Virus record (IMG/VR): IMGVR_UViG_3300025362_000004
Location: 59,583-123,582 of that record
Length of the DNA: 64,000 nucleotides
Strand: one strand, 5' to 3'
Origin: a virus
The position numbers were made by a program, and so were the translations under genes. The notes under the pieces were generated by a model. It did not search any database and was not told where the DNA came from. It saw nothing but the letters and a program-made list of their open reading frames with translations. Of this stretch, positions 29,286-64,000 are shown piece by piece; the first letter of the stretch is position 1, and each line of letters begins with the position of its first letter.

Positions 29286-29363
29286 GGGAGTATAGTGTCA
29301 ACTGGACAGCACGTCGGCCTTCAAACCCGTACAGCCCCAGTTCAATTCTGGGTACTCCTGCCA
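29286..29363 (+). tRNA. tRNA-Trp(TCA), opal-reading
   Basis: CTTCAAA loop, G73, class I fold, mismatched anticodon stem. Confidence 0.8.
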
Positions 29364-29396
29364 ATATTACTGTCAAAGCGACGAGGGCGATACAAC

Positions 29397-29906
29397 ATGG
29401 ATATTTGATTAATAATAGGAACAATAACTGGGCTTTTAGTAGGTATTACAGGGCTTTTAACATACTTTGAACATAGACGAGATGCAAAAGAGAATAAAAG
29501 AAAAAAAGCTACAATTGAAAAACAAGAGGAATTTAAAAAAGAAATAATAAATGAAGTAACTCATAGAACTGCTGAAGAAAGAGAAAGTTGTTTAGAAGAG
29601 AAATTGATCGATTATCTTGATAAAAAAACATACACTGAAAGACATGAAGAAGTTATTAAAGAAATACATAAATTATCAGGACAATTAACCAAACACTACT
29701 CAGAATCAATAGAAACAGAAAGACAAAGATTGGCTTCTGAAATAATTAATTTTGCAGAAGATATAAAAAATAAATTGCCAAAATCTTCAGTCGCATATGA
29801 ACATATACATATATGTTATAAACGATATAAAGATATTGGTGGAAATCATTATATAGATAAAGTGTTTGAATATATACAAAATAGCATGGGTGAAGATGAT
29901 GTTTAA
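29397..29906 (+). CDS. holin-like single-TM coiled-coil protein, TGA=Trp at codon 4
   Basis: MDI*LIIGTITGLLVGITGLLTYF, in frame with ORF 29604-29906. Confidence 0.65.
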
Positions 29907-30300
29907 AATTATTAGTTTTATCTGACAATTACCACAGAACTTAATAGGATTATTTTTATACTTGGTATTTGGAACTGCGAAACGCTATAAATATAAAGGA
30001 AAATATGTAGCTCATGCTAAAACAAACAAATGAGGTGCAATAAGTTTAGGAATGTTTATTATTTTCTTTGCTGATTACGGCGATGGAGAATATTATACAA
30101 ATACAATAAATCATGAATATGGACATACAAAGCAATCAAAAATGTTAGGTCCATTTTATTTGTTAATAGTTGGATTACCTTCAATAATTTGAGCTAGTTG
30201 TTTTAAAGGGTATAGGGTGTCTACGGGCGCAAGCTACTACTGATTTTATACAGAGCATTGAGCTGATAAATTAGGTGGAGTTTCCCGCTGTAAAAAATAA
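29899..30300 (+). CDS. membrane-associated HExxH (zincin-like) protein, 5 TGA=Trp
   Basis: I*QLPQNLIG...NHEYGHTKQS..LGP.Y; TGA at 29923, 30031, 30190, 30241, 30259. Confidence 0.8.
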
Positions 30301-30386
30301 CAATACGAAAAGCAAGTTTATGAAATTTGCTTTTTTTTATAATTTATGGTATAATATATATATAAGATATGGAAATGGAGGTATTT

Positions 30387-30962
30387 ATGTTAGTTTTATT
30401 TAAAAATATGAAACAAGATAATATACTCGTTTTCGATGCCGAATATAATGAAGGAGACTTAATTCAATTTGCTGGGATATTATTTCGGAAAATAGAAGAA
30501 GATATTTTTCAAGTTCATAAATCAATTAATTTCTATGTAAAGTTAGATGGAACAAAAATTAATTATTTTATAGAACGATTTACTGGTATTACAGACGAGT
30601 ATTTAGAAGAAGAAGGGATTAACCTTTCAGAAGCAAAAGAAAAAATAGATGAGTTATTAAGAGAATCTAATAACACATTAATAGTTAGCCACGGATTATA
30701 TAACGATAGATTAACTTTAGAGAATAATGGTATCGATTTTTATGAAATGGAAGAATGCGTTACAGGACTATGTACATATAATATGTCCAAAAGAATATTA
30801 AAAAGAGATAATCATTTAAAATTAGAAGATGTTGCAAGTGAAGCGGGGATCTTCCTTTCACGCAAGCATAATGCTTTTGATGACACCTGGGCAACGGTTG
30901 CGGTTTTTAGCCTATTGTGTAAACTTGATGCGGAGGAAACAGATGAAAAAAGTATTTTATAA
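30387..30962 (+). CDS. DEDDh 3'-5' exonuclease
   Basis: FDAE, SHG...D, HNAFDD. Confidence 0.85.
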   Translation: MLVLFKNMKQDNILVFDAEYNEGDLIQFAGILFRKIEEDIFQVHKSINFYVKLDGTKINYFIERFTGITDEYLEEEGINLSEAKEKIDELLRESNNTLIVSHGLYNDRLTLENNGIDFYEMEECVTGLCTYNMSKRILKRDNHLKLEDVASEAGIFLSRKHNAFDDTWATVAVFSLLCKLDAEETDEKSIL

Positions 30963-31392
30963 TTATGATAAGATGGATTTAGAACGAAGAAAATCCTATA
31001 AAAAGGTAGTTTTCAATTTGAATGTTCCGAACTTTTATGGAATGGAATTTTTTCAAGAGATTGATAAAAAGATAATAGAGTTTATAAATGAACTAGATAA
31101 AAATGAGCCAACAGTAATCCAAATAGTTGGTGATTTTAGTTTGGTTAAAAATGAAGAGCCAGCAGATATTGAGGATTTTTTAACTTCAATCGTGGCTCTA
31201 TTTATTTCTGCCATTCATATTAAAACGGAAAAATCAGATAGGGAGCATAGATTGGCAGTACCTCAAAAGTTAGCCAATATAAATCTGCCCTATACTTCAA
31301 AATTAAAAATAATAAATTATAAATTAAGACTTCCGATCTTTACGATAGAAATCTTAAATGAAAAGCAAGAAATTTTGCTAAAAATATTTTAG
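30943..31392 (+). CDS. hypothetical protein
   Basis: GGAGG RBS. Confidence 0.7.
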   Translation: MKKVFYNYDKMDLERRKSYKKVVFNLNVPNFYGMEFFQEIDKKIIEFINELDKNEPTVIQIVGDFSLVKNEEPADIEDFLTSIVALFISAIHIKTEKSDREHRLAVPQKLANINLPYTSKLKIINYKLRLPIFTIEILNEKQEILLKIF

Positions 31393-31400
31393 GTGATATA

Positions 31401-31892
31401 ATGAAAATATTATTATTAACAACTGTTGAGCCAACTCAAGCGGCTATAGACTATAGAGAATTAACTGATGTAATAGATATTAAAAATATTAGTTTAATTT
31501 CAATACCATTTTTTGCTGAGATTGATTCAATGAATAATGGGAGATTATATCTTCCTACTTTATTTGCAATGTATAAAGCAATGACAGATAAACCAACTCA
31601 AAAAAAGATATTTGATAAAAGGCATACATTGATTATTGGGAACTCATATAAGAGTGAGAAGTTTGATATGATTATATCTTTAGGTGATTCTTCAGAAGAT
31701 ACCTATACAAAAATGATAAGAGATTCACAAGAATATAAAGAGTTTAATTTATTAGTAGAAGCAGAAAAATTATACGACTGGCAAGATGCAGAGTTAAACT
31801 TTCCTACAATAAGACACGTCATACTATTTTTAGAAGGAGTTATAAAAGATGGAACAATTCAACGAAAAGCAAAAACTAGCAATACAATGTAA
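31401..31892 (+). CDS. hypothetical protein
   Basis: AGGTG RBS. Confidence 0.7.
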   Translation: MKILLLTTVEPTQAAIDYRELTDVIDIKNISLISIPFFAEIDSMNNGRLYLPTLFAMYKAMTDKPTQKKIFDKRHTLIIGNSYKSEKFDMIISLGDSSEDTYTKMIRDSQEYKEFNLLVEAEKLYDWQDAELNFPTIRHVILFLEGVIKDGTIQRKAKTSNTM

Positions 31893-33117
31893 TGAAACAG
31901 AAATAGTTATTATCGCGCCTGCGGGAAGTGGTAAGACTACAACACTTGTTGGCGCAATTACAAGATATAAAAATGAAAATCCTGATTCAAAAGTAGTGGC
32001 TATTACATTCACCCGTAAAGCCGCAGAGGATTTATCAAATAAATTAATGGAATATACTAATATAAGAACGTCAACTATTCATAGTTGGGCTTATACAGAA
32101 TTAGATATATTATCAAAAAGAGTTTCAAAAGAGTTTCCTCAAAATACTTTTAAAGTAAAATTGTTAGAGGAAGATAGAATTAAAGAAATACTTAATAGTA
32201 TCATTAAAAATAGAGGTTATAAATACTTAAATATGTATCAATTATATAGTTATGTTATGGGTAATTATAATATTGAGGTTAATGATAAACTAAAAAGAGT
32301 ATTTCAGTCAGTAAAAGATAGTTATGTAGCGTATAAAGAAGATAATGGTTTATATGATTTCACAGATTTACCACAATACTTACTTGATAAGTTAAATGAC
32401 TACGGGTTAAACATTGAAAAAATAGATGCATTATTTGTTGATGAGTTTCAAGACGTAGATGAAACACAATTAGAATTATTTAATCGTGTTCCTGCGCAAA
32501 AGAAGTTTTATATTGGAGACCCACAGCAAGCAATTTATATTTTTAGAGGTGCTACTCCAGATGTTTTAGATAAGTTAGATGATTTTAAAACACACGATTT
32601 GAATATAAATTACAGAAGTTATCAAGAGATTGTAGACTTCGCAAGCAGTGTTCAAGATAAAGCAATGATTCAAGGAGTAAATTTCACTATTGAAAAAGAA
32701 TCATCAAGAAGTAATATTGAATGTATTAAAGGATATGGTGGAAATGTTTATACTCTTAATGCTTCTGGAGATGCATATAAAGTAAATGAGTATATAAGAG
32801 TAAAAGGCATTGATGTCATACGTGGATTTATTATGAGAAATTCAATGATATTGTGTAGAAAAAATAAAGAAGTAAGAGCAATAAAGAATTTAGGTTATGA
32901 TAATGTTTCAACAATACATCAAGCAAAAGGGTTAGAATACGAAAGTGTTATTATAACAAGTTTCGAACTAGCACCTGGTAATATGGAAGAAATAAATATT
33001 GCATATGTCGGAATGACAAGGGCTGAAGATTATCTATTAGCGGCTGACTACAACGCATTTATATATCTATTACCAAAAATTATGCCAGATTATAAAAAAG
33101 CAAATAGTTTATTTTAG
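31849..33117 (+). CDS. UvrD/REP-like SF1 helicase
   Basis: APAGSGKT, VDEFQD, GDPQQAIY.FRGA, TIHQAKGLE, YVGMTRA. Confidence 0.9.
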   Translation: MEQFNEKQKLAIQCNETEIVIIAPAGSGKTTTLVGAITRYKNENPDSKVVAITFTRKAAEDLSNKLMEYTNIRTSTIHSWAYTELDILSKRVSKEFPQNTFKVKLLEEDRIKEILNSIIKNRGYKYLNMYQLYSYVMGNYNIEVNDKLKRVFQSVKDSYVAYKEDNGLYDFTDLPQYLLDKLNDYGLNIEKIDALFVDEFQDVDETQLELFNRVPAQKKFYIGDPQQAIYIFRGATPDVLDKLDDFKTHDLNINYRSYQEIVDFASSVQDKAMIQGVNFTIEKESSRSNIECIKGYGGNVYTLNASGDAYKVNEYIRVKGIDVIRGFIMRNSMILCRKNKEVRAIKNLGYDNVSTIHQAKGLEYESVIITSFELAPGNMEEINIAYVGMTRAEDYLLAADYNAFIYLLPKIMPDYKKANSLF

Positions 33118-33130
33118 AAGGAGAAAGAAA

Positions 33131-34219
33131 ATGAAGATAAGTAAAGAAGAATTTAGAACAACTTACTGGAATATGCCTGCCATGAAATACTATGAAGGAG
33201 ATTTATCAAAACAAAAAGCATTAGATATGATAGATAATAACAATAATAATTGTGTTGCTATGGTTAAGTGGGATGGCGAATGGAATATGTCTATTATTGA
33301 TGAAGATGAAACATTAATGAGAGGTCGTAATAAAACTGTTAGCGGCGACTATAAGAATCGCGCAGATTGGTTACCACATATAACTAAACAACTACAATCT
33401 ATTTTTCCTTCTGGAACAGTTTTCTTAGGAGAGGTATCATTTAATGACATAACTAAAACGTCTAAAGACGTTGGAACAATAATGAGATGTAATGTTAGTA
33501 AAGCATTAGAGCGACAACAAAGAGGCCCATTATCATTCCATATTTTTGATTGTCTATGTTATGATTATGAAGACCTTCGGAAAAAAACATTTGAAGAAAG
33601 AATCCAAGTGGTCTACGATAACTATAAGCAAGTAATAGATTATATTTATCCCGTTGCTATTGTAAAAGAAAATTTTATGGATTTTGCAGAAAAAGTTTGG
33701 GCTAAAGGTGGAGAAGGAGTTCTTGTTATTAAAAGGAACGAACCTTATAGAGCTGGCTCAAGAAAAGCTTGGTCAAGTCTAAAATTGAAAAAGAAACTTG
33801 GAGAAATTAAAGTAAAAGTAATAGACCTTATTGAACCAAATAGAGACCACGAGGGAACTAGTGGAGAAGCTTGGCAATACTGGTTAATACAAAAGAACAT
33901 TAATTTCGGTGAAGTTGGTAGAGCTATTTGGATAGATGAAGAATTTTGTAAAACACGCAAAATGATTAAAGACCCATTCCATAGAACTTTACCTGTAACT
34001 AAGCCATACTGGAATAAATGGAAAAATGGTGTTTTAGTTGAACATGAAGGAAATAGAATTAGAGTAGCGTCTGGATTAGACGATGCAACTAGAGAATGGC
34101 TAGCAACGCCTGAAGCGGCTGAATTGCTAGAGAAAGAAGAATTATTCGTAAATATAACTGGCATGGAAATTACTGACGACAGTATCAGACATCCAGTATT
34201 TTTAGGAGTTATAAAATAA
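33131..34219 (+). CDS. ATP-dependent DNA ligase
   Basis: KWDG, FHIFD, EGVL, W..LKLK, RHPVF. Confidence 0.85.
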   Translation: MKISKEEFRTTYWNMPAMKYYEGDLSKQKALDMIDNNNNNCVAMVKWDGEWNMSIIDEDETLMRGRNKTVSGDYKNRADWLPHITKQLQSIFPSGTVFLGEVSFNDITKTSKDVGTIMRCNVSKALERQQRGPLSFHIFDCLCYDYEDLRKKTFEERIQVVYDNYKQVIDYIYPVAIVKENFMDFAEKVWAKGGEGVLVIKRNEPYRAGSRKAWSSLKLKKKLGEIKVKVIDLIEPNRDHEGTSGEAWQYWLIQKNINFGEVGRAIWIDEEFCKTRKMIKDPFHRTLPVTKPYWNKWKNGVLVEHEGNRIRVASGLDDATREWLATPEAAELLEKEELFVNITGMEITDDSIRHPVFLGVIK

Positions 34220-34233: not shown

Positions 34234-36747
34234 ATGCAAGTTAAAAAAAGAAATGGAGAACTTGAAGATTTTAATTTAATGAAAATCGCCAAGGCAGTAT
34301 ATAGAGCAAGGCTTGATGCGGGTTATGAAAAAGACTTAGAGCGTTGCGTTGATGAAGCAAAAATAATCATGAAAGATATTGTTAATGGTAAAACTTTAGA
34401 TATTGAAACAATTCAAGATGAGATAGAAAAGTATTTTATTAAAAATGATGATATAGAAGTATTTAAACTTTTCACTTTCTATCGTGAAAAAAGACGACAA
34501 GACAGAGCTAATCCATGAGCCAATAATGACGAGCGTCAAGATTTAATACTTCAAAAATATTTACTTCCAACAGAAACTAAAAAGGAATTTTTAGATAGAA
34601 TATCACTTGGGAGAACAGACCTTCTTAAGATTTTTAGAAATCGAGAGGGTATTTGAGGTGGAAGAAACCTTTTTGCGATAGGTAGAGACGGTAATATTAC
34701 TGGTTCTAATTGTTATGTTGCTGAAAATCCAACAGATAGTTTAGAGGATATTTATAGAGTAGCTTTTGATATTGCTAAAACTTATAGTTATGGTGGTGGA
34801 CAAGGTATGAACTTATCTAATCTTAGACCTAAGGGCGCTAAAGTAAATAATAGTAGTAATACGACACCTGGTGTCATGACTTTTGCAGAGTTATATTCAT
34901 TTATTACTTTACACACACAACAAGAAAGTAGACGTGGAGCACTAATGCTTATGTTAAATATTGACCACCCAGATATAATTGATTTTATTACTTCTAAGCT
35001 AGACTTATCTAAAATTACAGGTGCTAATATTAGCCTTGCGATTACGGATGATTTTATGGAAGCATATAATAATAATAAAGATTGAAATTTAACTTTTGAA
35101 ACGCCTTATGAGATGATAGTAAAAACTGTAAATGCAAGAGATTTAATGCATTTAATTAGTTACTCAGCTCATACAATGGGAGACCCAGGATTCATTTACA
35201 TTGATAATGTTAATAATTATCATTTATTAAGTGAATATGATGAAGTAGAATTTACAGCTACAAACCCGTGTGGTGAACTGCTTGCCTCACATTAAACATC
35301 GAGCAATATCGGTGAAGGCTTAACTGCTAATACCGAGATAAGTTACACTTTAATAGGTGTAACCATCGTAACGCATAGATAATGAAACTTTTGATACACC
35401 GCGTGCGGCGATCCGGACTGGTTCAAAAGAATATAATTTATCCACGAGTGCTCGATATATAATCCCCTACGGATTATATAAAAATATATGCTGACCTACC
35501 AGATGAATAAATCTGGAAAGCCGCGTCTAATTGTCATACGACAGTGGTTGAACGAAAGTTCTAGAAGTAGAGAATAAAAAGTCTTTACGATAACAATAAA
35601 GGAGCAACCTTTAATGGCAAATGGTTCATGCAACCTCGGAAGTATTAACTTAAATGCTTTTGTAAGAAAAAATTTTACTGAAGAGGCGTATTTTGATTCT
35701 GGAAGATTTATTGAAGTAGTTAAATCTATGATTAGTGGATTAGATGAATTATTAGATATAATGGGTGAAAGACATGCATTGGCATCTCAAAGAGAACATG
35801 TTATAGAATGGCGTGAAGTTGGATTAGGAGTTATGGGACTTGCTGATTTAGCTTTAAGTATGGGATTAGGATATGGAACATCTGAATTTATTAAAGTTCT
35901 TGATGTGATTATGTCTACAATGGCTAATGCGGCGGCGCAAGCGTCGGTTGAATTAGCGGTAGAAAAAGGAACATTCCCGAAATATGATTATGAAAAGATT
36001 TCTAGTTCAAGGTTCTTTAATGAAGTCTATTCAGAAGAAACAAAAAATATGATACAAGAGTATGGTTTAAGAAATAGTAGATTACTAAGTATTGCACCAA
36101 CTGGTAGTATATCAAATATTATTGGAGTTAGTGGCGGCGTTGAGCCTTATTTTATGCTTGGCTATCAAAGAACTATTAAGTCTATGTTCGAGGATGAAAA
36201 GACAATTTGAATTTACGAAAAAACTCCGTTAAAAATGATGAAGTATTTCAAACTTGAAAATCATTATGATTTACCTGATTGGGCTAAAATAACTTCACAG
36301 AATATTAATGTTAATTCAAGATTAAAAGTTCAAGAGACTATTCAAAAATATGTTGATACAGCAATTTCTTCAACATTTAATTTACCTAATGATGCTACAA
36401 CTGGAGATGTCGAAGGTATTTATAAAAGCGCTTGGGCTAGAGGAATTAAAGGAGTTACAGTATTTAGAGATAACTGTAAAAAAATTGGTATTCTTACAGG
36501 TGGTGGAGATAGTTTTGATAAACATCCTGCGGAAAAACCATCAATGGTTATTAAAGAGCTATGATATAATAAAGCGACTCAAGAAGAAAAACAATTTATT
36601 ACTAATATCCAAATAGGAGAAAGTGATTATCAAGTTGAAAAAATTGGTTTAGAATATTGTCCAGAGTGTGGTAGTCATTTAGTTAAAAAGAATGGCTGTA
36701 CTCAATGTAGTAGTAACGATTGCGACTACGAGAAGTGTGGAATATAA
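34234..36747 (+). CDS. nrdJ: class II ribonucleotide reductase with ATP-cone; join 34234-35274 and 35602-36747; 5 TGA=Trp
   Basis: VKKRNG ATP cone, SNC, TNPCG|EQPL, CNLGSIN, SIAPTG, C-terminal Zn ribbon; TGA at 34516, 34654, 35083, 36208, 36562. Confidence 0.9.
35275..35601 (+). mobile_element. group I intron without homing endonuclease in nrdJ
   Basis: Splits NPCG|EQPL; 5' exon ends in U, intron ends in G; guide sequence pairs both exons; AATATCGGTGAA/AATACCGAG, CGTAACG, ATATGCTGAC core motifs. Confidence 0.85.
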
Positions 36748-37061
36748 TGGATTTAGATAAAAGCTCTTTAAAGAGAGCCAGTCAAAATCAAAAATTTATT
36801 CTTGACTTTTATGCAGACTGGTGTAAAGGGTGTCAAAAAATAAAACCAATCCTTGAAGAAGAACAAGAAGTTAGTAAAGATATTAGATTTATTTATATTA
36901 ACGTTGATGACTTTGATAAAGAATTGTTAAAAAAACAATTTGGAGTCATAGCAATTCCTAACGTTCAATTCTGATACGAGGGCAGAAAAATGGATTTCAC
37001 TGTTGGCTCTGTCGCTGAAGAAAAGATAGTAGGAAAAATAGAGAAGTTTAAACAAAAATAA
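36747..37061 (+). CDS. thioredoxin, TGA=Trp at 36972
   Basis: DFYADWCKGC, cis-Pro IP; fold is complete only with readthrough. Confidence 0.85.
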
Positions 37062-40057: not shown

Positions 40058-40415
40058 AGAAGGACAAAGATTACTAGAAGAGATTCATGACGAATATAAT
40101 AAATTAATGAAAAACTTTAGAAGATTTAAAAATACTGACAACCCTATAGACCGCCTTGAATTTTTCGGAGACGCCTATTCGGACATATTTGTTTGGTTAA
40201 AATCTCTTAATAAGCTTATTGAAGATTGTTTAGATAACGATTTTGGTGATACATTTTATAGATATATGTTATCTTATATAATGAGTTTTGAGGACGGGAC
40301 TGTAGAGGCAGAAACTATGTTTGAAGCAGTGCAACATCTAAGTGAAATAATACATCAGAATAAAGGTAAAGAAATATCAATAAAATTTGAGGTGGAAGAT
40401 GAGTTACACAAGTAA
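40050..40415 (+). CDS. hypothetical protein
   Basis: GAGGT RBS. Confidence 0.65.
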   Translation: MNKEGQRLLEEIHDEYNKLMKNFRRFKNTDNPIDRLEFFGDAYSDIFVWLKSLNKLIEDCLDNDFGDTFYRYMLSYIMSFEDGTVEAETMFEAVQHLSEIIHQNKGKEISIKFEVEDELHK

Positions 40416-42267
40416 AAATATAACAACACTCGAGGGCATTGAGGCGATTCGCTTAAGACCAGCTATGTATATAGCTAATGTAGATTCAAGCGGAATACAT
40501 CACTTAGCACTTGAAGTTATTTCAAATAGCATTGATGAAGCTTTAAACAGCCATGCCGATGTAATAGAAATAACAACAAAAGGAAAAACAATAACAGTAA
40601 CAGATAATGGCCGTGGAATACCTTTCGGTAAAACTAAAAATGGTAAAGAAGCGATAATTGAAATCTGCACAAGTTTACACAGTGGTGGTAAATTTGGACA
40701 AGGCGGATATTCAGTATCTGGTGGATTACATGGTATCGGACTAACAGCAGTTAATGCTTTGTCTGATTATTTTTACATTGAGTCAAGACGTGATAATAAA
40801 AAAGCAATGGTTGAAGCCAAAAAGGGAATCATTCAAGAGTTCGAAGTAGTTAATAAGGTTTCTAAAGATACTGGGACTACAATAGAATTTATTCCCGATA
40901 CAGAAATATTTAAAAACGAAACATTTAATCTTAAAGAGCTTGAGAGAATAGTTCAAGAATTGAGTTTCTTGACTTCAGAAGCCACCTTTATTTTAAATGG
41001 TAAGAAGTTTAAAAGTAAAGACGGTCTTAAGGAAATGATTAAAGACAAATCAAAGAAACCGCTTACCGATATTATTTACGTAAGAGGAGAAGAACCTGGC
41101 TTCATGGTAGAGCTTGCATTTCAATTTGAAGATAGAAGCATGGAAAGAATATATGCCTACACAAATAACATCCCCAATGAAGAGGGGGGAACTCACGTTA
41201 CTGGATTTAAAACTGCGTTCACAAATTCAATAAATAAACTTGCAAGAAAATATGGTATGTTAGAAGAGAAAGATGAAAATCTAAACGGAGATTTACTACG
41301 TATTGGATTGAATGCGGCTATCTCGATAAGGACAGCTGAAGCACCTATATTCAAAAGTCAAACAAAAAATAAACTAATGACGCCTGGAGCTCGTGGAGCA
41401 GTTAGTAGATTACTAACAGCTAACTTTGAAAATAGCATAACGAAAAAAGATTTAAAGATAATTGTAGACCGTGCTATATCTGAACAGAAAGCACTTGATG
41501 CGGCTAAACGAGCTAGAGAAGCCGCAGGTAAAGTTAAGTCAGGCGGCAAGGACATGAATTCTATTAAAGACTTACCAAGTAAGCTTGTAGATTGTAAAGA
41601 TAGAAATGGAGAAGTTTGGATTCTTGAAGGAGACTCAGCTGGTGGATTAGCTAAGATGTGTCGTAATCCAAAGAATCAAGCAATACTACCTTTAAGAGGA
41701 AAAGTATTAAATACACATGGAAAAGAACTAGCAGACATTATAAAAAATAAAGAAATCAAGGATATGATTACAGCCTTTGGAACAGGCGTTGCTAATCAGT
41801 TCAATATAAGGAACTTCAGATACAGTAAAATAATTATACTCGCAGACGCAGACCCAGATGGGAAACACATCAATGTCCTAATACTAACATTAATCGCAAT
41901 GCACCTGCCAGAACTAATCAAACAAGGTAAGGTTTATGTGGCTATACCGCCGCTATTCAAATCTACAACACCTAAATCAGTAAAATATTTCTTTTCTACT
42001 GATGAGTTAGATAAAGCTAGCGGTAAAGGACAAGTTACACGATTCAAAGGTATTGGTGAAATGAATGCCGAAGACTTATGGGATACAACAATGAATCCAG
42101 AAACAAGAAAGATTGTAAAATTAACTGCAGAAAACTTTGAAGATACATTAAAACTATTTGATACACTTATGGGTAAATCTTCAACAGCTCGTAGAAATTT
42201 TATTATCCAAAATACAGATAAATTAAACGAAGAAGATTTCTTTGGAGATGGAGAGGATAGTGAATAA
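40399..42267 (+). CDS. gyrB: type IIA topoisomerase B subunit (GyrB/ParE)
   Basis: DNGRGIP, GGLHGIG, EGDSA, PLRGK, DADPDG.HI. Confidence 0.9.
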   Translation: MSYTSKNITTLEGIEAIRLRPAMYIANVDSSGIHHLALEVISNSIDEALNSHADVIEITTKGKTITVTDNGRGIPFGKTKNGKEAIIEICTSLHSGGKFGQGGYSVSGGLHGIGLTAVNALSDYFYIESRRDNKKAMVEAKKGIIQEFEVVNKVSKDTGTTIEFIPDTEIFKNETFNLKELERIVQELSFLTSEATFILNGKKFKSKDGLKEMIKDKSKKPLTDIIYVRGEEPGFMVELAFQFEDRSMERIYAYTNNIPNEEGGTHVTGFKTAFTNSINKLARKYGMLEEKDENLNGDLLRIGLNAAISIRTAEAPIFKSQTKNKLMTPGARGAVSRLLTANFENSITKKDLKIIVDRAISEQKALDAAKRAREAAGKVKSGGKDMNSIKDLPSKLVDCKDRNGEVWILEGDSAGGLAKMCRNPKNQAILPLRGKVLNTHGKELADIIKNKEIKDMITAFGTGVANQFNIRNFRYSKIIILADADPDGKHINVLILTLIAMHLPELIKQGKVYVAIPPLFKSTTPKSVKYFFSTDELDKASGKGQVTRFKGIGEMNAEDLWDTTMNPETRKIVKLTAENFEDTLKLFDTLMGKSSTARRNFIIQNTDKLNEEDFFGDGEDSE

Positions 42268-47250: not shown

Positions 47251-47252
47251 AA

Positions 47253-47618: not shown

Positions 47619-47638
47619 GAAATCGGGGGTAATGATTA

Positions 47639-50275: not shown

Positions 50276-52059
50276 TGAGTAGTAAAATTAGATATAGAGT
50301 GAAACCGAACACGAGCATTAATTTGAATTCAGCTAATCCAGTAAAGGATTATTTAGAAGCACTTGGTATAGAGAATGCGTTCAGTTTTATAGAGAGACCA
50401 AGATTAGAAGACCAAGAATTTTACGGAAATTTAGACAATATTGAAGAGGCAGCAGAATTATTATATAAGGGATTTAAAGAGAACAAAATATTTTTCCTAC
50501 AAGTCGATAGCGACGTGGATGGTATTACAAGTTCAGCAATATTTTATTCGTTTTTCAAAAGACTCTTTCCAGAAGCAAAAATAAGATATAGACTTCATGA
50601 AGGTAAAGAGCATGGGGTTATAGTGGATACAGTTCCGCTAGATACAGATTATGTTATTATACCAGATGCGGGAACCATGCAATATAAACAGCAACAAGAA
50701 ATGGTTGAATTAGGTTATCAAGTTATTATTATGGACCACCATAATGCTGATGAATTTATAGAAATGGAAAACGTATGTGTTGTAAATAACCAAATGTCCG
50801 AGAACTTTAATAACAAGAGTTTGAGTGGTGCTGGAGTAGTTTATAAAGTTATTCAAGCATTTAACTTTTTATATCAAGATGAATTTCCAATCATCTATCA
50901 AGATTTCGTTGATTTAGCCGCATTGGGGATTGTCGCAGATATGATGGATACTAGGAACTTAGATAACAATTATATTATTTATAAAGGTTTAAGTAATATT
51001 AAAAATCCTATGTTTAAAGCGTTATTAGAAAAGCAAGCTTATAGTGTCACAAGCACGGAGAATCCAACAAAGATAGACGTAGCATTTTATGTAGCACCAT
51101 TAATGAATGGAGTTATTAGATATGGAACTGAAAATGATAAAGCAGAATTATTTAAAGGATTCATTGATTACCATAATGAAGAAATAATTGAAACAACTTA
51201 TGCTGGCAATCTAAGAAGAGAAAAGTATTATGAGTTCGTTGCTAGAAATTCATATAATGTAAAAGAAAAACAGAATCGTGAGAAATTAAAATTCATGAAA
51301 TATCTTTGTGATAGAATTGATGCAGATAAAAGTTATGAGAATCAATTACTTATTGTAAAAGCTTCGAAAGAAGATGATGTAGCTATACCAAAAACAATCA
51401 CTGGTTTAGTGGCTATGGAATTATTAAAGAAATATAAGAAACCTACTTTACTATTAAGACCAAAAATGATAGATAACGAATTATATTATGCAGGAAGTGG
51501 TCGTGGTAAACAGAATGGAGATTTTACTTCATTAATGCATTTCTTAAGAGAAAGCGGATTAGTTGAATACGCCGAAGGGCATGGAATGGCGCATGGTGTA
51601 ATGATAAGAGAAGATAATATTGATAGACTAATTGAATACGCTAATAAAAAATTAAAACACATTGAGTTTGATGTAAACTCATTGGAAGTAGATTTTATGT
51701 TCACAGAAATGAATATTAATAGAAATTTAATAACTCAATTTGGTTCAATAAATCATATTTATGGTAATGGAATACAACAACCTAAATTTGCATTTGAATT
51801 AATGATAGATAAAATGGCAATTAATTTTATCGGTAGAGGAGAAAATACAGTCAAATTTAGAGTTAATGGGGTAGATTTTATTAAATTTAATAATAAAGCT
51901 CTAGCCACTCAGCTAAAAGAGATTGAAGAACCAACAATAAAAGCTACCGTTATAGGTAGAGCACAAGTAAACGAGTGGGGTGGAAATATAACTCCACAAA
52001 TAATGATAGATGATATAGAGGTGGAAGGATATGAGCAAGAACTCAACAAACTCTTTTAG
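50275..52059 (+). CDS. recJ: RecJ-like DHH exonuclease
   Basis: DSDVDG, DHH, SGAGV, GSGRG, GH..AHG. Confidence 0.9.
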   Translation: MSSKIRYRVKPNTSINLNSANPVKDYLEALGIENAFSFIERPRLEDQEFYGNLDNIEEAAELLYKGFKENKIFFLQVDSDVDGITSSAIFYSFFKRLFPEAKIRYRLHEGKEHGVIVDTVPLDTDYVIIPDAGTMQYKQQQEMVELGYQVIIMDHHNADEFIEMENVCVVNNQMSENFNNKSLSGAGVVYKVIQAFNFLYQDEFPIIYQDFVDLAALGIVADMMDTRNLDNNYIIYKGLSNIKNPMFKALLEKQAYSVTSTENPTKIDVAFYVAPLMNGVIRYGTENDKAELFKGFIDYHNEEIIETTYAGNLRREKYYEFVARNSYNVKEKQNREKLKFMKYLCDRIDADKSYENQLLIVKASKEDDVAIPKTITGLVAMELLKKYKKPTLLLRPKMIDNELYYAGSGRGKQNGDFTSLMHFLRESGLVEYAEGHGMAHGVMIREDNIDRLIEYANKKLKHIEFDVNSLEVDFMFTEMNINRNLITQFGSINHIYGNGIQQPKFAFELMIDKMAINFIGRGENTVKFRVNGVDFIKFNNKALATQLKEIEEPTIKATVIGRAQVNEWGGNITPQIMIDDIEVEGYEQELNKLF

Positions 52060-52258
52060 TCTAGAAGGGTTATTTAGAAAAAGGGGTATTTCATTATATC
52101 ACGCAGATGGTATTGAGAGAAGCCCTATAGATATAATTGAAGATTTATATATAAGACTTAACCAACGGGAATTAAGTACATTATTTTATGAAATTGGGGA
52201 AGAGGAAGATTTGGGAAATAACATTTTCCAAAGGGAGAGAGAACAGAATGAAAATTAA
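52031..52258 (+). CDS. hypothetical protein
   Basis: Overlapping ORF. Confidence 0.65.
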   Translation: MSKNSTNSFSLEGLFRKRGISLYHADGIERSPIDIIEDLYIRLNQRELSTLFYEIGEEEDLGNNIFQREREQNEN

Positions 52259-52805
52259 TTTAATTGAATTAATGCCAATACAACAAGAAGTAAATGATGT
52301 TGTTATTAAAAGACTTGGTAGAAAAGTATCAATAGATGAATACATATTAGCATTTAATGTAGAGTTATTTGAATACTTTAACGCAATCGGGACTTGAAAA
52401 TGGTGAAAACAAAGCCATAAACAAGATAGAGAAAAAATACTTGACGAGCTAGCGGATTGCTTTGCGTTTTTCTTATCTGTGCTTTTAAGGTCAGATGAAG
52501 TTATGGAAGAACGAGGTAAAAATAAGATGTCTAAAACTGCCGAAAGAGAAGTTGAAGATACGCTTAATTTACTTTTAAAAGACCAAGAAAGAGACAACAT
52601 AGATACAACAAAATTAATAAATAGTTGGATTACTATGATTGCCTGTGACCATGAGACTGAAGATAATGTATTCACAACTCAAAGATTCTCAGTAGCAATT
52701 TTTTTAGCAACACAATTATTTGAAAACATAACTTGAAGTGAAATTACTGAAGCATATAAACAAAAATCAAAGGTCAATATTGACCGACAAAACGGAGGGT
52801 ATTAA
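52248..52805 (+). CDS. dimeric (all-alpha) dUTPase, 3 TGA=Trp
   Basis: VELFE..N.IGT*KW*K...LDELAD...K..VNIDRQ.GGY; TGA at 52395, 52404, 52734. Confidence 0.85.
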
Positions 52806-59907: not shown

Positions 59908-60087
59908 ATGTCAAAATTAGATTTCACTAATATTAGTGATAAAGAATTATTAGAACTTGAGAAAAATGAAGATTCAGCGATTGGGAAAAAATTAATTAAA
60001 ATGATTTATGACCCAGAACTTGGAGAACATTATGAAAAGTTAGAAGAAATCAAGCAAGAAAAAGACCGCAGAAATTTAGATGGCTAG
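59908..60087 (+). CDS. hypothetical protein
   Basis: GAGGTG RBS, short ORF. Confidence 0.6.
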   Translation: MSKLDFTNISDKELLELEKNEDSAIGKKLIKMIYDPELGEHYEKLEEIKQEKDRRNLDG

Positions 60088-60820
60088 GTTAAGTAAAGCT
60101 CAATTCTTAGAAGAACTTGAAAATAAAAATCTGACTTTGGATACACAGTCAGAAGAATATAAAAATATAAGTTCTCCAATTCTCGTTAACTGTAAGGAAG
60201 GACATAGAATAGAAACTAATTTGAAAACAATTAGAAGAACTAATTTTAGATGTCCAGTTTGCGAAGGAGAATCGTCTACAGGATTGAGTACACCTAATCC
60301 GCAATCAGTTCCACCTAAAAAGGGATACAGAATTATTGGGATTGATAATGCGACGCAAAGTTTTGGTTTAAGTATATTCGAGAGTGGCAAATTAATTTAT
60401 TATACGTTGTTGACTTTTAGCGGCGATACGACAGCACGATTAAATGCGATAAGAGATGCCATGGAGAATATGATTATACCAGTTTGAGAACCAGATTTTG
60501 TTCAGTTTGAAGACGTGCAATTACAAGGACAAGGATTCGGCAAAGGATTTAAAACTTATGAGGTTTTAGTTAAATTAGTTGGATTACTTGAAATGAGTTG
60601 TGCTAGATTTGGAATTAGATATAGTAAAGTAAGAAGTAATATCTGGAGAAGTAATTTCTTAATTAATGGAAAGGGTAGGACTGAAGAAAAGAAAAAATCT
60701 ATTGCAAAGGTAAAAGAAATGTATGGAGTTACACTTAATGATGATATTGCAGAAGCAATACTTATTGGGAAATACAGAGTTACATTACATGAAAAAAGTG
60801 AACGAAAAGATTTATTTTAA
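60080..60820 (+). CDS. Zn-ribbon plus RuvC-like resolvase, TGA=Trp at 60485
   Basis: IIGID..T..G, V*EPDFVQFED, DDIAEAILIG. Confidence 0.8.
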
Positions 60821-60825
60821 TAGAA

Positions 60826-60859
60826 AAAGACTTAGCAAAGGCTAAGTCTTATTTTTTTT
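60826..60859. terminator. bidirectional terminator between convergent modules
   Basis: AAGACTTAGC-AAAG-GCTAAGTCTT flanked by A and T runs. Confidence 0.8.
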
Positions 60860-61163
60860 ATACTTCTACATATTGTGACGCCTGTGCAGATATACTTTTA
60901 CCAGTTGCTGTGGCTGTAGCATAAATTGTTGTATACGGAGTCGTAGAGCCTGCAACTATTTCAATAGTTTTTGATAGATAAGTAATTCCAGTGTAGTCAC
61001 TGCCGCCGCTATTAATTGTTGCCGTCACGGTGTCATTATTTTGTACTTTTCAGTAAACGTCATAGAATCTAAATCCATCATAAACAATTGAATAGTCTGT
61101 TATTGTTGGAGTCGTAGTTGGCTCTTTTTGTTGACTTAATACTCCAAATAAGATAATACTAAT
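60858..61163 (-). CDS. small virion-associated protein, one TGA=Trp, probable ATT start
   Basis: Open frame with one TGA; AGGTGA RBS. Confidence 0.55.
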
Positions 61164-63297
61164 TGTAATCACCTACTATATACCACACTGTTGAAGTATA
61201 AGCAATTAATGTAACAGCCGCATATACAGTAGAGACGACTTTGCTTGCTGAAGAACCATTTAAAGTTACACCACTACATGCTATTGTAACATCATCACCA
61301 GAAGAATTAAATACAGTTATTTGTGTCCCAGCAGTTAGAGTCGACGGTATTGTTAATGTACATTCAGCATAGGCATTTACAAAGCCGTTATTATCTGTAG
61401 CTGCAAAATTCCTAGCTGAGCCCTGACCGTCTATGTGAGCGTATAATAGTCTGTATCCTGCCTTAACATGTGCTGTAGTTGCAATCTGTGTTGTATCTGT
61501 ACCCACTGCGGCTGTTGGGGCCGTAGGGGTTGAAGTTAAAGCTGCACTTGTAAACATCGTAGCTTTTGATTCATTCGTTACATTTTGTAAAAGTAAATCT
61601 GTTTTAAAGAGTGTTGCTGTAAGCAAACTAGCAACGCCTCCAGTTGTGATTTGAATATAACTAGTTGTAGCTGGAGTAGTTTTTGTGAATAAATCTTTTC
61701 CTACATCTGTACCGCCAAGTGACGTTCTACCTGTCGCCGCTACTAGGCCAGTACTACCACCGTCTCATTTAAGCCTATCTGTGTAGGCTGTAGACCAATT
61801 AGTCTGGTTTGTAGTCGTAGGTATACTGTATCCTGCAGTAAATGATAACGCTAATGTACCAGAACCTGTAATAGGTGAATTCGAAACTGTTAAACCGGTA
61901 GGCGCAGATAATCCCACTGAAATTACTGTACCAGTATTATCTGTAGGTGTGAATCCTAAAGCCGTAGTGACATCTAATGAAACTATAGCTGAAGTATAAG
62001 TAGGCACTCCACTATCTGTAACTTTATCATCATTAGTTTGAACTCTGTATTCAAGTTTTCTAAAACTGTCTAATATCGAATCTGTTGCAATTAAATCTGA
62101 TGCACTACCGTAAGTTGTAAAGCCAGTTAAAGCCATGGCAATTACTTGAGCATTACTTAACTGTGTGTTAGGTGGTGCAGTAAATGCACCATCTCCACGA
62201 AGATATTTAGTTGTAGCTGCTGCTGCAGGTACTAAGCCACTATTCCCTTCAGCGATTGCTGAAGAATACTGTATATTTGTAGAATTAAAAGCATTACTTC
62301 CAAAACCTGAAGTTAAAGTATAATCACCGAGTGCAGTTGTTAAGTCTGATGTTACTAAATTTCCACTTGCTGTCCCTGTTAATGCTCCTTTAAAAGTTGT
62401 TGCAGTAATACTTTTATTATCTCTATTTATAGTTATACCAGTTGTAGAATAAACAGTGTCTCCTGAATTCCATACTATATTGTATTCACCAGTTCCACTA
62501 TTACTTGCATTTACATCTACTGTGTCCGCTCATTTTACATATAAATTATCAACCATTGTCGTTGATGCCACTGTAAACGGTGCTGTTCCAGTTACTATTG
62601 ATGATTCAAGTATATTCGCTTTTAATGTACCAGTCGAACTTTGTATTTGGACATTTGTTGCTGAATATAAAGCATTCCCACTATGCCAAGGTACACTGTA
62701 AAATGTTGCATCAGTTCTACCAGTTGCAACTGCTGGGGGGAATGAGGTTCTACTATCAATTCCACTTCTTGAAACCATTGCTACATTGCCAGTTCCTGCA
62801 CCAGTTAATACATAACCATTTGTAAGTGTTGTTAATCCAGTACCACCATGAGTTACTGCAACTGTCCCAGTAACATTTGATGCGTTTCCTGTTATATTAC
62901 TAGTAGATTGAATTGGTGTAAACCCTAACCCAGCAACTACTGCTGCACTTGTAACTACTGCAGTTTTAACACTTGCCAAGCTTGTTGGTCTAACATAATT
63001 ATCTGTCCCATCTCCTGGCGTTACTTGGGTCATAAAGTGATTTGGTGTTGTGTTATTTGATGTATAAGTTGGTCTAAGCAATCTAATTTTTAAATCTCCA
63101 CTGCTATCTCTTAAAGCAATTGTATTTGCCGTATTTTCAGAAGAACTAGAATATCCGTCTAATAAATCTGCATTTAAATTAGTTACTTTTGTCGTTGAAC
63201 CAATCACAAGAGGTGCTGTTCCCGTAGAAACTAAAGAGATAATTTGTCCTGTAATTTTTTGTGCTCCGTATATTTCTGTATATCCTAATTTAGCCAT
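61159..63297 (-). CDS. tail fibre protein (712 aa) with 2 TGA=Trp
   Basis: Three track ORFs are one frame joined at TGA 62530 and 61765; LNADLLDG, TAYTDRLK*DGGSTGL, TTQIATTA fibre motifs. Confidence 0.85.
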
Positions 63298-64000
63298 TTA
63301 ATCAACCTCCGAGAATTCGCCTTCTATAACAAGAGTCCCATCTATTTTTATCTCTGCGGCTTGACCGTTTGAAGTGCCGCTTACTTCGTCTATATTTGTA
63401 AAATATGCGATACTTTTTTCAGAAATTCTATAATTTTCTCCATCTGTAATATCAAATACGTTTAAATCTTTTATATATAAATCTGTTCCTAAAATTCCTG
63501 TACTTGAGTATGTAAAACCAAATTTATATTGTCTATATGTATCTCAATATCTATCAGTTTTTAATACTATCCCAGTACCACTACTTGTCGCATTATTGCT
63601 TGTAGTAAAACTTACATCTGTAGTTAAACCAGTTACTGTCGTTCCATCTGGAAAATACGAATTTGGTAAAATAGTATCTCCAACTGTGACATCTGGGGCG
63701 CTTGTGTGTTTATTTGTATAAAGTACAATATTAGAACCATTTGTTATATCTGAATTTCAACTACCATTTAATCATCTACTACCGACTGTATAATAAATTT
63801 TAATTAAAATATAATCAGCAGATTCAAAATCTGTAAAATTATAAGCCATACTAGCTGTACGAGTAGCTAATCCTATTCCCATTGTACTCCAACCAACCCT
63901 ATATGCAAAATAAGAAGATGCGTTATTTGATGTTTGCCCCTTTATTTTAAAAGTCATTACATAATCATGTTCAGGTATTAAAGCATAATCATCTAAATAT
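63298..64000 (-). CDS. virion/tail protein, 3' part, 3 TGA=Trp
   Basis: Frame open through three TGA codons to TAA at 63298. Confidence 0.7.

What the first reader, a model, noticed from the sequence alone, without database searches (positions are those of the whole stretch)
29286..64000. Gene-selective UGA-to-Trp recoding with a phage tRNA-Trp(UCA) heading putative lysis genes
Seen: in-frame TGA at Trp-compatible positions in nrdJ (5 of 8 Trp), thioredoxin, dUTPase (3 of 5), the RuvC-like gene, the holin-like gene (codon 4), the HExxH membrane gene (5 of 5), the tail genes and ORF 12897. In contrast, Trp-containing dnaE, ligase, topoisomerase, helicase, primase and the InlB-repeat gene use only TGG. 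I saw no credible gene ending in TGA. The UCA tRNA has its own promoter and directly precedes two TGA-containing genes. Established: stop-codon recoding enriched in late and lysis genes occurs in phages of standard-code hosts, and Acholeplasmatales use code 11. Inference: a code switch that here also gates dNTP supply and junction resolution.
Basis: partly seen in the sequence, partly recalled or inferred. Interest (0 to 1): 0.8.

Follow-up and report, generated by a model that had tools for sequence, protein, structure and literature searches.

The report
Opal-recoded phage with suppressor tRNA
This is a 124 kb phage genome that reads the stop codon TGA as tryptophan in its particle-building genes and some nucleotide-metabolism genes but never in its DNA-replication genes, and it carries its own TGA-reading tRNA; the pattern is real but was already described for other phages.

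Summary
The window is the second half of a complete 123,582 bp phage genome from IMG/VR (a public collection of viral contigs).

- **TGA is Trp.** In-frame TGA codons align with TGG or TGA in 115 of 169 listed cells across 14 related contigs, including invariant Trp columns of the large terminase.
- **The use is gene-selective.** Counts are TGA/TGG:
  - structural genes 56/39
  - nrdJ, thyX, dUTPase, thioredoxin and the RuvC-like gene 13/9
  - two membrane genes 6/0
  - replication genes 0/64
  - other early genes 0/69
- **It is conserved.** Two relatives of 116-118 kb keep the core replisome free of TGA.
- **The tRNA is real but atypical.** The tRNA(UCA) at 29286-29363 passes Rfam's threshold. 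Its acceptor stem is close to that of the phage's tRNA-Trp(CCA). Two of its anticodon-stem pairs are mismatched.

- Two to four early genes probably do end in TGA.
- The "lysis" label for the two downstream genes has no family support.
- The tRNA promoter belongs to the early consensus class, so a late switch is not shown.

The host is unknown. This matches the TGA-recoded phages of Borges et al. (~127 kb "Agate" type), so it is a new member of a known kind.

The parts
29096..29124 (+). Consensus sigma-70-type promoter (TTGACA, 17 nt spacer, TATAAT) upstream of the tRNA(UCA)
   Evidence: 12 of 12 matches. It belongs to the same class as 41 sites with 11 or more of 12 matches genome-wide, against 7.95 +/- 3.2 in 40 Markov simulations.
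29131..29285 (+). 155-nt structured leader between the promoter and the tRNA; family unknown
   Evidence: Minimum free energy -45 kcal/mol, z = -4.33, 0 of 200 shuffles fold as well. No Rfam match at E <= 1. No relatives found by exact-pattern scans. The G002 counterpart has no such leader.
29286..29363 (+). tRNA-Trp-like opal suppressor: anticodon UCA, discriminator G73, encoded CCA end
   Evidence: Rfam tRNA 43.5 bits against a gathering score of 29. Found by ARAGORN only at relaxed thresholds. The acceptor stem differs from the phage tRNA-Trp(CCA) at one compensated pair. Pairs 27-43 (U.U) and 31-39 (C.C) of the anticodon stem are mismatched.
29397..29906 (+). 169-aa protein with one N-terminal membrane segment and a charged coiled-coil tail; TGA at codon 4
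   Evidence: Translation. Only sub-threshold Pfam and PHROG hits. It cannot be translated past codon 3 under code 11.
29896..30300 (+). 134-aa membrane protein with an HExxH motif; all 5 Trp codons are TGA
   Evidence: no family hit. A weak homologue in G001 has 1 TGA and 1 TGG.
30369..34219 (+). TGA-free genes: DEDDh exonuclease, a 163-aa ORF, UvrD-type helicase, ATP-dependent ligase
   Evidence: Pfam. 0 TGA and 15 TGG in the four genes counted.
34234..36747 (+). Class II ribonucleotide reductase nrdJ in two halves (34234 to about 35282, and 35614-36747) around a structured insert of about 330 nt; 5 of 8 Trp codons are TGA
   Evidence: Pfam Ribonuc_red_lgC positions 1-216 and 225-522. Matches in the Protein Data Bank (PDB) continue across the TGA codons. 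Insert: -100 kcal/mol, z = -6.4, no Rfam hit.
36747..37061 (+). Thioredoxin, 1 TGA and 1 TGG
   Evidence: Pfam PF00085, E = 3.4e-15; counts.
40387..52059 (+). TGA-free replication block: gyrB, gyrA, AAA_24, DnaB helicase, primase, RecJ
   Evidence: Pfam. 0 TGA in every gene counted. Also 0 TGA in the matched stretches of G001 and G002.
52248..52805 (+). Dimeric dUTPase (dUTPase_2), 3 TGA and 2 TGG
   Evidence: Pfam E = 5.6e-22. TGA codon 53 aligns with W and codon 50 with F in a solved S. aureus phage dUTPase.
54333..59894 (+). TGA-free genes: DnaE (1280 aa, 14 TGG), a 387-aa ORF (11 TGG), a 187-aa ORF (2 TGG)
   Evidence: DnaE has 0 TGA and 23 or 26 TGG in G001 and G002.
60080..60820 (+). RuvC-like Holliday junction resolvase, 1 TGA and 1 TGG
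   Evidence: PHROG 159, E = 2.1e-15.
60858..64000 (-). End of the minus-strand structural module: a 104-aa ORF, a 712-aa tail protein, and the C-terminal part of a tail-fibre-like gene that continues in frame from the contig start
   Evidence: In-frame TGA 1, 2 and 3. The frame continues across the contig ends.
9156..9230 (+). Phage tRNA-Trp(CCA), the probable paralogue of the suppressor
   Evidence: alignment.

Best explanation
The window belongs to a complete ~124 kb siphovirus-type phage genome. It is distantly related to the SPbeta and Geobacillus E3 group of phages that infect Bacillota. The phage uses TGA as a Trp codon in part of its genes while infecting a host that most likely uses the standard code.

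Proposed course of infection (inferred, not shown):
- Early genes and the whole replisome contain no TGA, so the host's unmodified translation system can read them. A few of these genes even seem to use TGA as their stop.
- The phage transcribes a tRNA with anticodon UCA from a consensus promoter. The tRNA looks like a copy of the phage's own tRNA-Trp(CCA) and is presumably charged by the host TrpRS.
- As this tRNA accumulates it competes with release factor 2 (RF2).
- Full-length synthesis then becomes possible for terminase, portal, tape measure and tail proteins, for two small membrane proteins encoded directly behind the tRNA, for a homing endonuclease, and for nrdJ, thyX, dUTPase, thioredoxin and a RuvC-like resolvase.

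Shown: TGA stands where relatives have Trp; the sharp gene-level partition and its conservation in relatives; the tRNA gene and its promoter.

Inferred: the host's code, charging with Trp, the timing, and any regulatory purpose.
For: 1. TGA is Trp.
- G000 is the window's own genome. Its in-frame TGA codons align in 14 IMG/VR relatives with TGG (69 cells) or TGA (46). No other codon exceeds 11, out of 169 cells in the 20 listed classes.
- In a 10-sequence alignment of the large terminase (TerL), W142 and W424 are invariant, and both are TGA in G000.
- dUTPase TGA codon 53 aligns with W. dUTPase codon 50 and ThyX codon 109 align with F in solved structures.

2. Partition (TGA/TGG):
- structural genes 56/39
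- replication genes 0/64
- other early genes 0/69
- nucleotide-metabolism genes plus RuvC 13/9
- membrane pair 6/0
- GIY-YIG endonuclease 5/1

Fisher p = 1.8e-17 for structural versus replication genes, and 7e-28 for structural versus replication plus other early genes. Permutation: 0 of 20000. Uncurated block sums show the same pattern.

3. Conservation. In the whole relatives G001 and G002 (TerL about 51% identical), gyrB, gyrA, DnaB, primase, RecJ and DnaE have 0 TGA, while structural genes carry TGA.

4. Early genes read correctly under code 11. Of 27 promoter-proximal ORFs, 25 reach TAA or TAG without meeting a TGA. The other 2 meet a TGA only 14 and 8 codons before the next stop, past the end of their Pfam domains.

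5. The tRNA.
- Rfam 43.5 bits.
- G73, a CCA end, and an acceptor stem one compensated pair away from the phage tRNA-Trp(CCA).
- G002 has a tRNA(UCA) at the syntenic place, with its own promoter.

6. No RF-1/RF-2 domain and no TrpRS/TyrRS domain in the phage. It must therefore use host factors.

7. The sequence is reproduced in contigs of four other runs.

8. [quoted passage not shown]
Against: - The host is not identified. The five genome-contig hits lie in bins of discordant taxa.
- No peptidoglycan hydrolase family was found in six-frame searches (8 families in G000, 4 in G001-G003). A wall-less host, including a code-4 mollicute, therefore stays possible.
- The tRNA has two mismatched anticodon-stem pairs and is missed by ARAGORN's default settings.
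- Its promoter is of the early consensus class, so nothing shows that it is made late.
- G001 has in-frame TGA but no detectable tRNA(UCA).
- There is no protein-level or RNA-level evidence.
- Reading any stop codon through lengthens ORFs. Reading TAA through gave more ORF gain than TGA, so coding density alone proves little.
- The base after sense TGA differs only mildly from the base after TGG (p = 0.024; C is rare, T is depleted).
Confidence: 0.8

Rival explanations
1. The host is a code-4 organism, for example a wall-less member of Mycoplasmatales or Entomoplasmatales. The phage then simply shares its host's code, and no code switch takes place.
For: - No peptidoglycan hydrolase domain of 8 families in G000, and none of 4 families in G001-G003.
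- No lysin domain in the tape measure protein.
- 32% G+C.
- The phage has both Trp tRNAs, as code-4 mollicutes do (the comparison is recalled).
Against: - 0 of 133 Trp codons in replication and other early genes are TGA, against 59% in structural genes, in an A+T-rich genome. A code-4 host gives no reason for such avoidance.
- The avoidance is kept in two relatives at about 45% protein identity.
- Two to four early genes appear to stop at TGA.
- A c-di-GMP-I riboswitch is present. From recall, that signal is not typical of Mycoplasmatales.
Confidence: 0.1
2. The recoding is real but passive. Once a suppressor tRNA existed, TGA drifted into every gene whose product is not needed in the first minutes of infection or is dispensable. 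The pattern then reflects tolerance and expression level, not a device that gates lysis, dNTP supply or junction resolution.
For: - The tRNA has an early-class consensus promoter.
- nrdJ, thyX and dUTPase gave no match in G001 or G002 in the tblastn, so they may be accessory.
- Eight of 24 structural genes have no TGA. One of them matches PHROG 4088, which I take to be the major capsid protein by its place in the module. This fits avoidance in the most highly expressed genes.
- TGA positions are spread evenly along genes (Kolmogorov-Smirnov p = 0.37).
Against: - TGA at codon 4 of the first gene behind the tRNA, and 5 of 5 Trp codons in the second, look more than incidental.
- nrdJ follows the TGA-free ligase after 14 nt, so genes that probably share a transcript differ in code.
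- Borges et al. report significant TGA preference in a membrane-protein family, a tail-protein family and an intron-endonuclease family of Agate phages.
Confidence: 0.3
3. The annotated tRNA(UCA) is not the working suppressor. TGA is read by another route, such as near-cognate reading by tRNA-Trp(CCA) helped by a phage factor, or inactivation of RF2.
For: - Two mismatched pairs in the anticodon stem, and ARAGORN's default settings miss the gene.
- G001 carries in-frame TGA without a detectable tRNA(UCA).
- Borges et al. found suppressor tRNAs in only 35% of code-4 phages.
Against: - The Rfam score is above threshold, with intact acceptor, D and T arms.
- A dedicated consensus promoter.
- A syntenic tRNA(UCA) in G002 that ARAGORN finds at its default threshold.
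- The gene is unchanged in four other assemblies.
Confidence: 0.1

Closest known systems
TGA-recoded 'Agate' phages of about 127 kb (Borges et al., bioRxiv 10.1101/2021.08.26.457843; passages and section 8 read)
   Same: - Genome size class.
- TGA read as Trp.
- Replication machinery in the standard code; structural genes recoded.
- A homing endonuclease, a tail protein and a single-pass membrane protein strongly recoded.
- A suppressor tRNA encoded by the phage.
- Few or no TGA stops.
   Different: - The holding runs are labelled salt lake metagenome, whereas the paper surveyed gut microbiomes.
- Here nrdJ, thyX, dUTPase, thioredoxin and a RuvC-like resolvase are also recoded.
- No lysin was found.
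- Clade membership could not be tested. No Agate sequence was at hand, and the paper's supplementary tables are closed.
'Code change module' of TGA-recoded Jade phages (same preprint)
   Same: A suppressor tRNA, itself readable in the standard code, lies directly upstream of TGA-bearing membrane-protein genes.
   Different: - Jade phages add a TrpRS and an RF1; neither domain is found here.
- Their downstream genes are a recognisable lysis cassette, which is not the case here.
Code 4 of Mycoplasma and Spiroplasma, and the phages of these hosts
   Same: TGA = Trp, read by a tRNA-Trp(UCA) that is a copy of tRNA-Trp(CCA). This description of the mollicute system is recalled.
   Different: Code-4 genomes use TGA throughout (recalled). 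Here 133 of 133 Trp codons in replication and other early genes are TGG.
TAG-recoded crAss-like, Lak and phAss-1 phages (PMC9523058: search listing only; PMC10607447: passages)
   Same: - Late genes are recoded.
- A suppressor tRNA is present and no dedicated synthetase.
- phAss-1 TerL is 28.5% identical to this one.
   Different: The recoded codon is TAG, read as Gln, not TGA as Trp.
SPbeta-type and Geobacillus E3-type siphoviruses of Bacillota
   Same: - DnaE (YorL type) 42.7% identical.
- TerL 35.8% identical to Geobacillus virus E3 and 31.6% to the YonF-type TerL of Brevibacillus phage Sundance.
- Genomes of 120-140 kb.
   Different: - From recall, the cultured relatives use the standard code and have endolysins.
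- No integrase domain turned up among the 89 proteins scanned.

Membership tests
Stop-codon-recoded (TGA to Trp) phages of standard-code hosts | In-frame TGA in conserved genes at positions where homologues have Trp | tested here: met
   115 of 169 listed aligned cells are TGG or TGA. The invariant TerL columns W142 and W424 are TGA in G000.
Stop-codon-recoded (TGA to Trp) phages of standard-code hosts | The recoded codon is concentrated in late genes and absent from early and replication genes | tested here: met
   56/39 against 0/64 and 0/69. 27 of 27 promoter-proximal early ORFs are readable under code 11. 'Late' is assigned by gene function, not by expression data.
Stop-codon-recoded (TGA to Trp) phages of standard-code hosts | Phage-encoded suppressor tRNA for the recoded codon | tested here: met
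   Rfam 43.5 bits, anticodon UCA. Caveat: two mismatched anticodon-stem pairs.
Stop-codon-recoded (TGA to Trp) phages of standard-code hosts | The host uses the standard code (RF2 present, no tRNA-Trp(UCA)) | not testable with these tools
   Host unknown. Only indirect support from TGA avoidance and probable TGA stops in early genes.
Stop-codon-recoded (TGA to Trp) phages of standard-code hosts | Trp found at TGA positions in the proteins | not testable with these tools
   No proteomic data are available here.
Agate clade (Borges et al.) | Placement inside the clade in a TerL phylogeny with at least 95% bootstrap support | not testable with these tools
   No Agate sequences were available and the supplements are closed. 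Size and recoding pattern agree.
Phage that shares a code-4 host's code | TGA used as Trp across all gene classes | tested here: not met
   0 of 133 Trp codons in replication and other early genes are TGA.
Phage lysis cassette (holin plus endolysin) | A holin family match and an adjacent peptidoglycan hydrolase | tested here: not met
   No significant Pfam or PHROG family for 29397-29906 or 29896-30300. Eight hydrolase families are absent from the whole genome.
Bacterial tRNA-Trp | G73 discriminator and a Trp-type acceptor stem with a CCA or UCA anticodon (identity rules are recalled) | tested here: met
   G73, and an acceptor stem that differs from the phage tRNA-Trp(CCA) at one compensated pair. 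Aminoacylation was not tested.

The most novel reading that the evidence does not exclude
The 155-nt, very stable leader between the consensus promoter and the suppressor tRNA is a sensor or attenuator that decides when tRNA(UCA) is released. A c-di-GMP riboswitch operon ends just upstream with no terminator-like site between them. On this reading the phage's change of genetic code is gated by a cellular signal, in a host that may be a wall-less, standard-code bacterium of salt lakes.
Probability: 0.08. Interest if true: 0.75.

Novelty: new member of a known kind. Interest (0 to 1): 0.4.

Why it matters
- It adds a well-resolved, complete example of opal recoding whose holding runs are labelled salt lake rather than gut.
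- It shows genes that sit next to each other, and so probably share a transcript, yet differ in code: the ligase has 0 of 12 Trp codons as TGA, and nrdJ directly behind it has 5 of 8.
- It extends the recoded set to enzymes of dNTP supply.
- It shows early genes that probably still stop at TGA, which is internal evidence for a standard-code host.
- Practically, such genomes are mis-annotated under table 11. Here 12 of the 28 ORFs of 300 aa or more appear only under code 4.

Tried and rejected
- **Host identification.** The single genome-contig scan, run with a TerL alignment, gave 5 hits. They lie in bins named Gammaproteobacteria, Acutalibacteraceae, Parabacteroides, Gemmiger and Ezakiella. 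I read these as phage contigs binned by chance, so they say nothing about the host.
- **Release factor and TrpRS.** No RF-1/RF-2 domain and no TrpRS/TyrRS domain in the phage.
- **Lysins.** Amidase_2, Amidase_3, Glyco_hydro_25, CHAP, Phage_lysozyme, Peptidase_M23, SLT and NLPC_P60 are all absent from G000. The four families tested in G001-G003 are absent too. Other lysin families were not tested, so absence is not proven.
- **Leader and tRNA relatives.** Three exact-pattern scans of viral contigs returned 2, 0 and 8 loci, all unrelated chance matches.
- **nrdJ insert.** No Rfam intron model matched the insert at E <= 1.
- **Distant solved nrdJ.** The solved Thermotoga NrdJ is too distant to test Trp at the TGA sites. 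It only shows that homology continues across them.
- **Base after TGA.** Weak and ambiguous.
- **Coding density.** Not decisive, because reading TAA through gives more gain than reading TGA through.
- **ARAGORN at relaxed thresholds.** It yields many false tRNAs, including (tta) and (cta) anticodons and a false (cca) in G001. I leaned on the Rfam score instead.
- **RNA evidence.** No RNA holder listed.
- **Population variation.** Contigs of four runs showed only 4 differing positions in 9.1 kb, so there was no TGA/TGG polymorphism to use.
- **Papers.** I saw the published version of Borges et al. not at all (recalled only). PMC9523058, PMC12676247, PMC13037316 and PMC8629427 were seen only as search listings.

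Full report
**What the sequence is**

The window is bases 59583-123582 of a single 123,582 bp contig with 32% G+C. The tool describes the contig as an IMG/VR virus record that CheckV rates 100% complete. I call this genome G000.

A minus-strand ORF that runs off the contig start continues in frame in the ORF that runs off the contig end. The record therefore looks like a whole, circularly permuted genome.

The nearest cultured phages infect Bacillota:
- DnaE is 42.7% identical to the YorL-type polymerase of SPbeta-like Bacillus phages.
- The large terminase (TerL) is 35.8% identical to that of Geobacillus virus E3 and 28.5% to that of the TAG-recoded gut phage phAss-1.

The window also holds 39 tRNA genes by ARAGORN's default settings, a tmRNA, a GOLLD RNA and a c-di-GMP-I riboswitch.

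**Check of the observation**

| Gene | TGA / TGG |
|---|---|
| nrdJ | 5 / 3 |
| dUTPase | 3 / 2 |
| HExxH membrane gene | 5 / 0 |
| Membrane/coiled-coil gene | 1 / 0 (TGA at codon 4) |
| Thioredoxin | 1 / 1 |
| RuvC-like gene (PHROG 159) | 1 / 1 |
| Tail genes at the window's end | 1, 2 and 3 TGA |
| ORF 12897-13091 | 1 TGA |
| dnaE | 0 / 14 |
| Ligase | 0 / 12 |
| gyrB, gyrA | 0 / 3 each |
| DnaB, UvrD | 0 / 1 each |
| Primase | 0 / 2 |
| InlB-repeat gene | 0 / 15 |

Outside the window, the minus-strand structural module (genome 1-29415) is the richest in TGA. Two further plus-strand genes carry TGA: thyX (3/2) and a GIY-YIG endonuclease (5/1).

**TGA means Trp**

I aligned G000 proteins, with X at each TGA, to 14 related IMG/VR contigs and read the codon opposite each TGA. 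The result was TGG 69 times and TGA 46 times. No other codon appeared more than 11 times, out of 169 cells in the 20 commonest classes.

In an alignment of 10 TerL sequences, W142, W312 and W424 are invariant. G000 writes W142 and W424 as TGA.

In solved structures, dUTPase TGA codon 53 lies opposite W. dUTPase codon 50 and ThyX codon 109 lie opposite F.

Contigs from four other public runs carry the same tRNA and the same TGA-bearing genes with 0-1 differences. Sequencing error is therefore excluded.

**The partition is real and conserved**

In a curated list of 69 genes the counts (TGA/TGG) are:
- structural genes 56/39
- replication genes 0/64
- other early genes 0/69
- nucleotide-metabolism genes plus RuvC 13/9
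- membrane pair 6/0
- endonuclease 5/1

Fisher p is 1.8e-17 for structural versus replication genes. None of 20000 permutations reached the observed heterogeneity.

I drew up that list after seeing the counts. As a check, the uncurated sums over all model ORFs of 100 aa or more are:
- structural block: 69/47
- the 35.5-88.7 kb region: 18/130

Going through, the 18 TGA codons in that region lie upstream of plausible starts, at extreme C-termini, or in ORFs antisense to genes or overlapping tRNA genes.

I fetched two relatives whole: G001 (115,739 bp) and G002 (118,402 bp), both about 51% identical in TerL. They also carry TGA in structural genes and none in gyrB, gyrA, DnaB, primase, RecJ or DnaE. 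DnaE there has 23 and 26 TGG. Their UvrD and the 387-aa gene behind DnaE do carry 1-3 TGA, so the boundary is not identical in all three genomes.

**Early genes and TGA stops**

The genome has 41 sites matching TTGACA-16/18-TATAAT in 11 or 12 of 12 positions, and 13 of them are perfect. Forty first-order Markov simulations gave 7.95 +/- 3.2 such sites and 0.25 perfect ones. Most sites lie at 33-54 kb, 30-60 nt before small ORFs.

I read the first ORF with a Shine-Dalgarno sequence behind each site under code 11:
- 25 of 27 reach TAA or TAG without meeting a TGA.
- 2 meet a TGA with only 14 and 8 codons left before the next TAA or TAG. These are an NT5C nucleotidase and a GIY-YIG endonuclease, and each Pfam match ends well before the TGA.

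Window ORF 5580-6275 has 7 TGG and a single TGA at codon 230 of 231. This is the best internal sign that TGA is a stop when these genes are translated.

**The tRNA**

- Position 29286-29363.
- Rfam tRNA score 43.5 bits, against a gathering score of 29.
- It has regular acceptor, D and T arms, a G73 discriminator and an encoded CCA end.
- Its acceptor stem differs from that of the phage's tRNA-Trp(CCA) at one compensated pair. That fits an origin by duplication and charging by TrpRS.
- Pairs 27-43 and 31-39 of the anticodon stem are U.U and C.C. This explains why ARAGORN's default settings miss it.

G002 has a 97-nt tRNA(UCA) with a Trp-like acceptor stem and an insertion of about 22 nt in the variable region. 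It sits at the syntenic place, upstream of the exonuclease-UvrD block, and has its own TTGACA-17-TATATT promoter. G001 has none that I could find.

The phage encodes no release-factor domain and no TrpRS.

**What follows the tRNA**

The perfect promoter lies at 29096-29124. It is followed by a 155-nt leader that folds far better than shuffled copies: -45 kcal/mol, z = -4.33, 0 of 200 shuffles as stable. The leader has no Rfam match and no relatives that I could find.

Thirty-three bases behind the tRNA starts the 169-aa membrane/coiled-coil gene, then the HExxH membrane gene. No terminator-like site was found between 28600 and 30500.

Neither protein matches a holin or any lysis family. No peptidoglycan hydrolase of eight families exists anywhere in the genome. 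'Lysis genes' is thus a guess. The first protein does resemble the description of the recoded single-pass membrane family in Agate lysis cassettes. I could not compare sequences.

**How it most likely works**

- The host's ordinary translation system reads the early genes and the replisome.
- The phage tRNA(UCA) is charged by host TrpRS. As it accumulates it reads TGA in competition with RF2.
- This allows full-length structural proteins, terminase, the two membrane proteins, an endonuclease, and enzymes of dNTP supply and junction resolution.

The promoter class suggests that the tRNA is transcribed early, so the delay would come from accumulation, not from late transcription.

nrdJ starts 14 nt behind the TGA-free ligase. 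Genes that probably share a transcript would then differ in when they can be translated.

All of this timing is inference. A passive reading, in which TGA drifts into whatever tolerates it, is not excluded. Eight of 24 structural genes lack TGA. One of them matches PHROG 4088, which I take to be the major capsid protein by its place in the module.

**Comparison with what is known**

Borges et al. [quoted passage not shown] Their findings include:
- Agate phages of about 127 kb, with replication genes in the standard code.
- Structural and lysis genes recoded.
- An intron endonuclease, a tail protein and a membrane protein that prefer TGA.
- Suppressor tRNAs detected in only 35% of code-4 phages.

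The present genome fits this kind feature by feature.

Differences:
- The holding runs are labelled salt lake metagenome.
- Nucleotide-metabolism genes are recoded here.
- The tRNA is atypical and has a structured leader.
- No recognisable lysin is present.

Membership in the Agate clade itself could not be tested.

**Verdict**

The details on lysis, on TGA stops and on timing need correction. This is a new member of a known kind, of moderate interest.

Noticed in passing
window 23063-23574: GOLLD RNA (Rfam RF02032, 150.4 bits, right at the gathering score of 150) in the early region.
   Followed up: no
window 27427-27501: c-di-GMP-I riboswitch (49.1 bits against a gathering score of 35) in front of four small ORFs (27532-29061). 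These ORFs end 35 nt before the tRNA(UCA) promoter, and no terminator-like site was found between them. None of the four has a Pfam hit. One has a weak PHROG hit to tail fibre proteins.
   Followed up: partly
window 35283-35613: nrdJ is interrupted right after the NPCGE active-site motif by about 330 nt. The insert folds at -100 kcal/mol (z = -6.4) but matches no Rfam intron model. The second half has its own AAAGGAG Shine-Dalgarno sequence and ATG. It is either a group I-like intron without an endonuclease or a truly split gene.
   Followed up: partly
window 3734-20032: Array of 39 tRNA genes plus a tmRNA at 18006-18397 (Rfam 94.2 bits). ARAGORN predicts the tag SPEYRIRLLTNTKW, which does not look like a usual degradation tag.
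   Followed up: no
whole genome G000, mostly 33-54 kb (L002, L003): 41 near-consensus sigma-70-type promoters, 13 of them perfect, against about 8 and 0.25 expected. Most stand before single small ORFs.
   Followed up: yes
whole genome G000 and relatives G001-G003: No peptidoglycan hydrolase domain of 8 common families in G000, and none of 4 families in the relatives. The tape measure protein has no lysin domain. This could mean a wall-less host or an unrecognised lysin.
   Followed up: partly
L002:15000-15449 (genome 34000-34449): An ORF-like stretch that under code 4 reads as five repeats of CKRLHIGW, that is a 24-nt tandem repeat and probably not a gene. It accounts for 9 apparent TGA codons.
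   Followed up: no
L035:247-343 (G002): The relative's tRNA(UCA) is 97 nt long, with an insertion of about 22 nt in the variable region. Its acceptor stem and G73 are Trp-like.
   Followed up: partly
window 7228-8061, 13965-14648, 53304-54284; genome 30097-31068, 49234-50148: At least five GIY-YIG endonuclease genes. Only the one beside the structural module carries internal TGA codons (5 TGA, 1 TGG). One other probably stops at TGA.
   Followed up: partly
window 63298-63957: The C-terminal part of the tail-fibre-like protein has a sub-threshold Pfam hit to TcdA1_RBD_3 (20.3 bits against a cut-off of 27). I read this as a receptor-binding fold at most, not as a toxin.
   Followed up: no
window 28900-38000: Near-identical contigs occur in at least four other public runs labelled salt lake metagenome, with only 4 differing positions in 9.1 kb.
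   Followed up: partly
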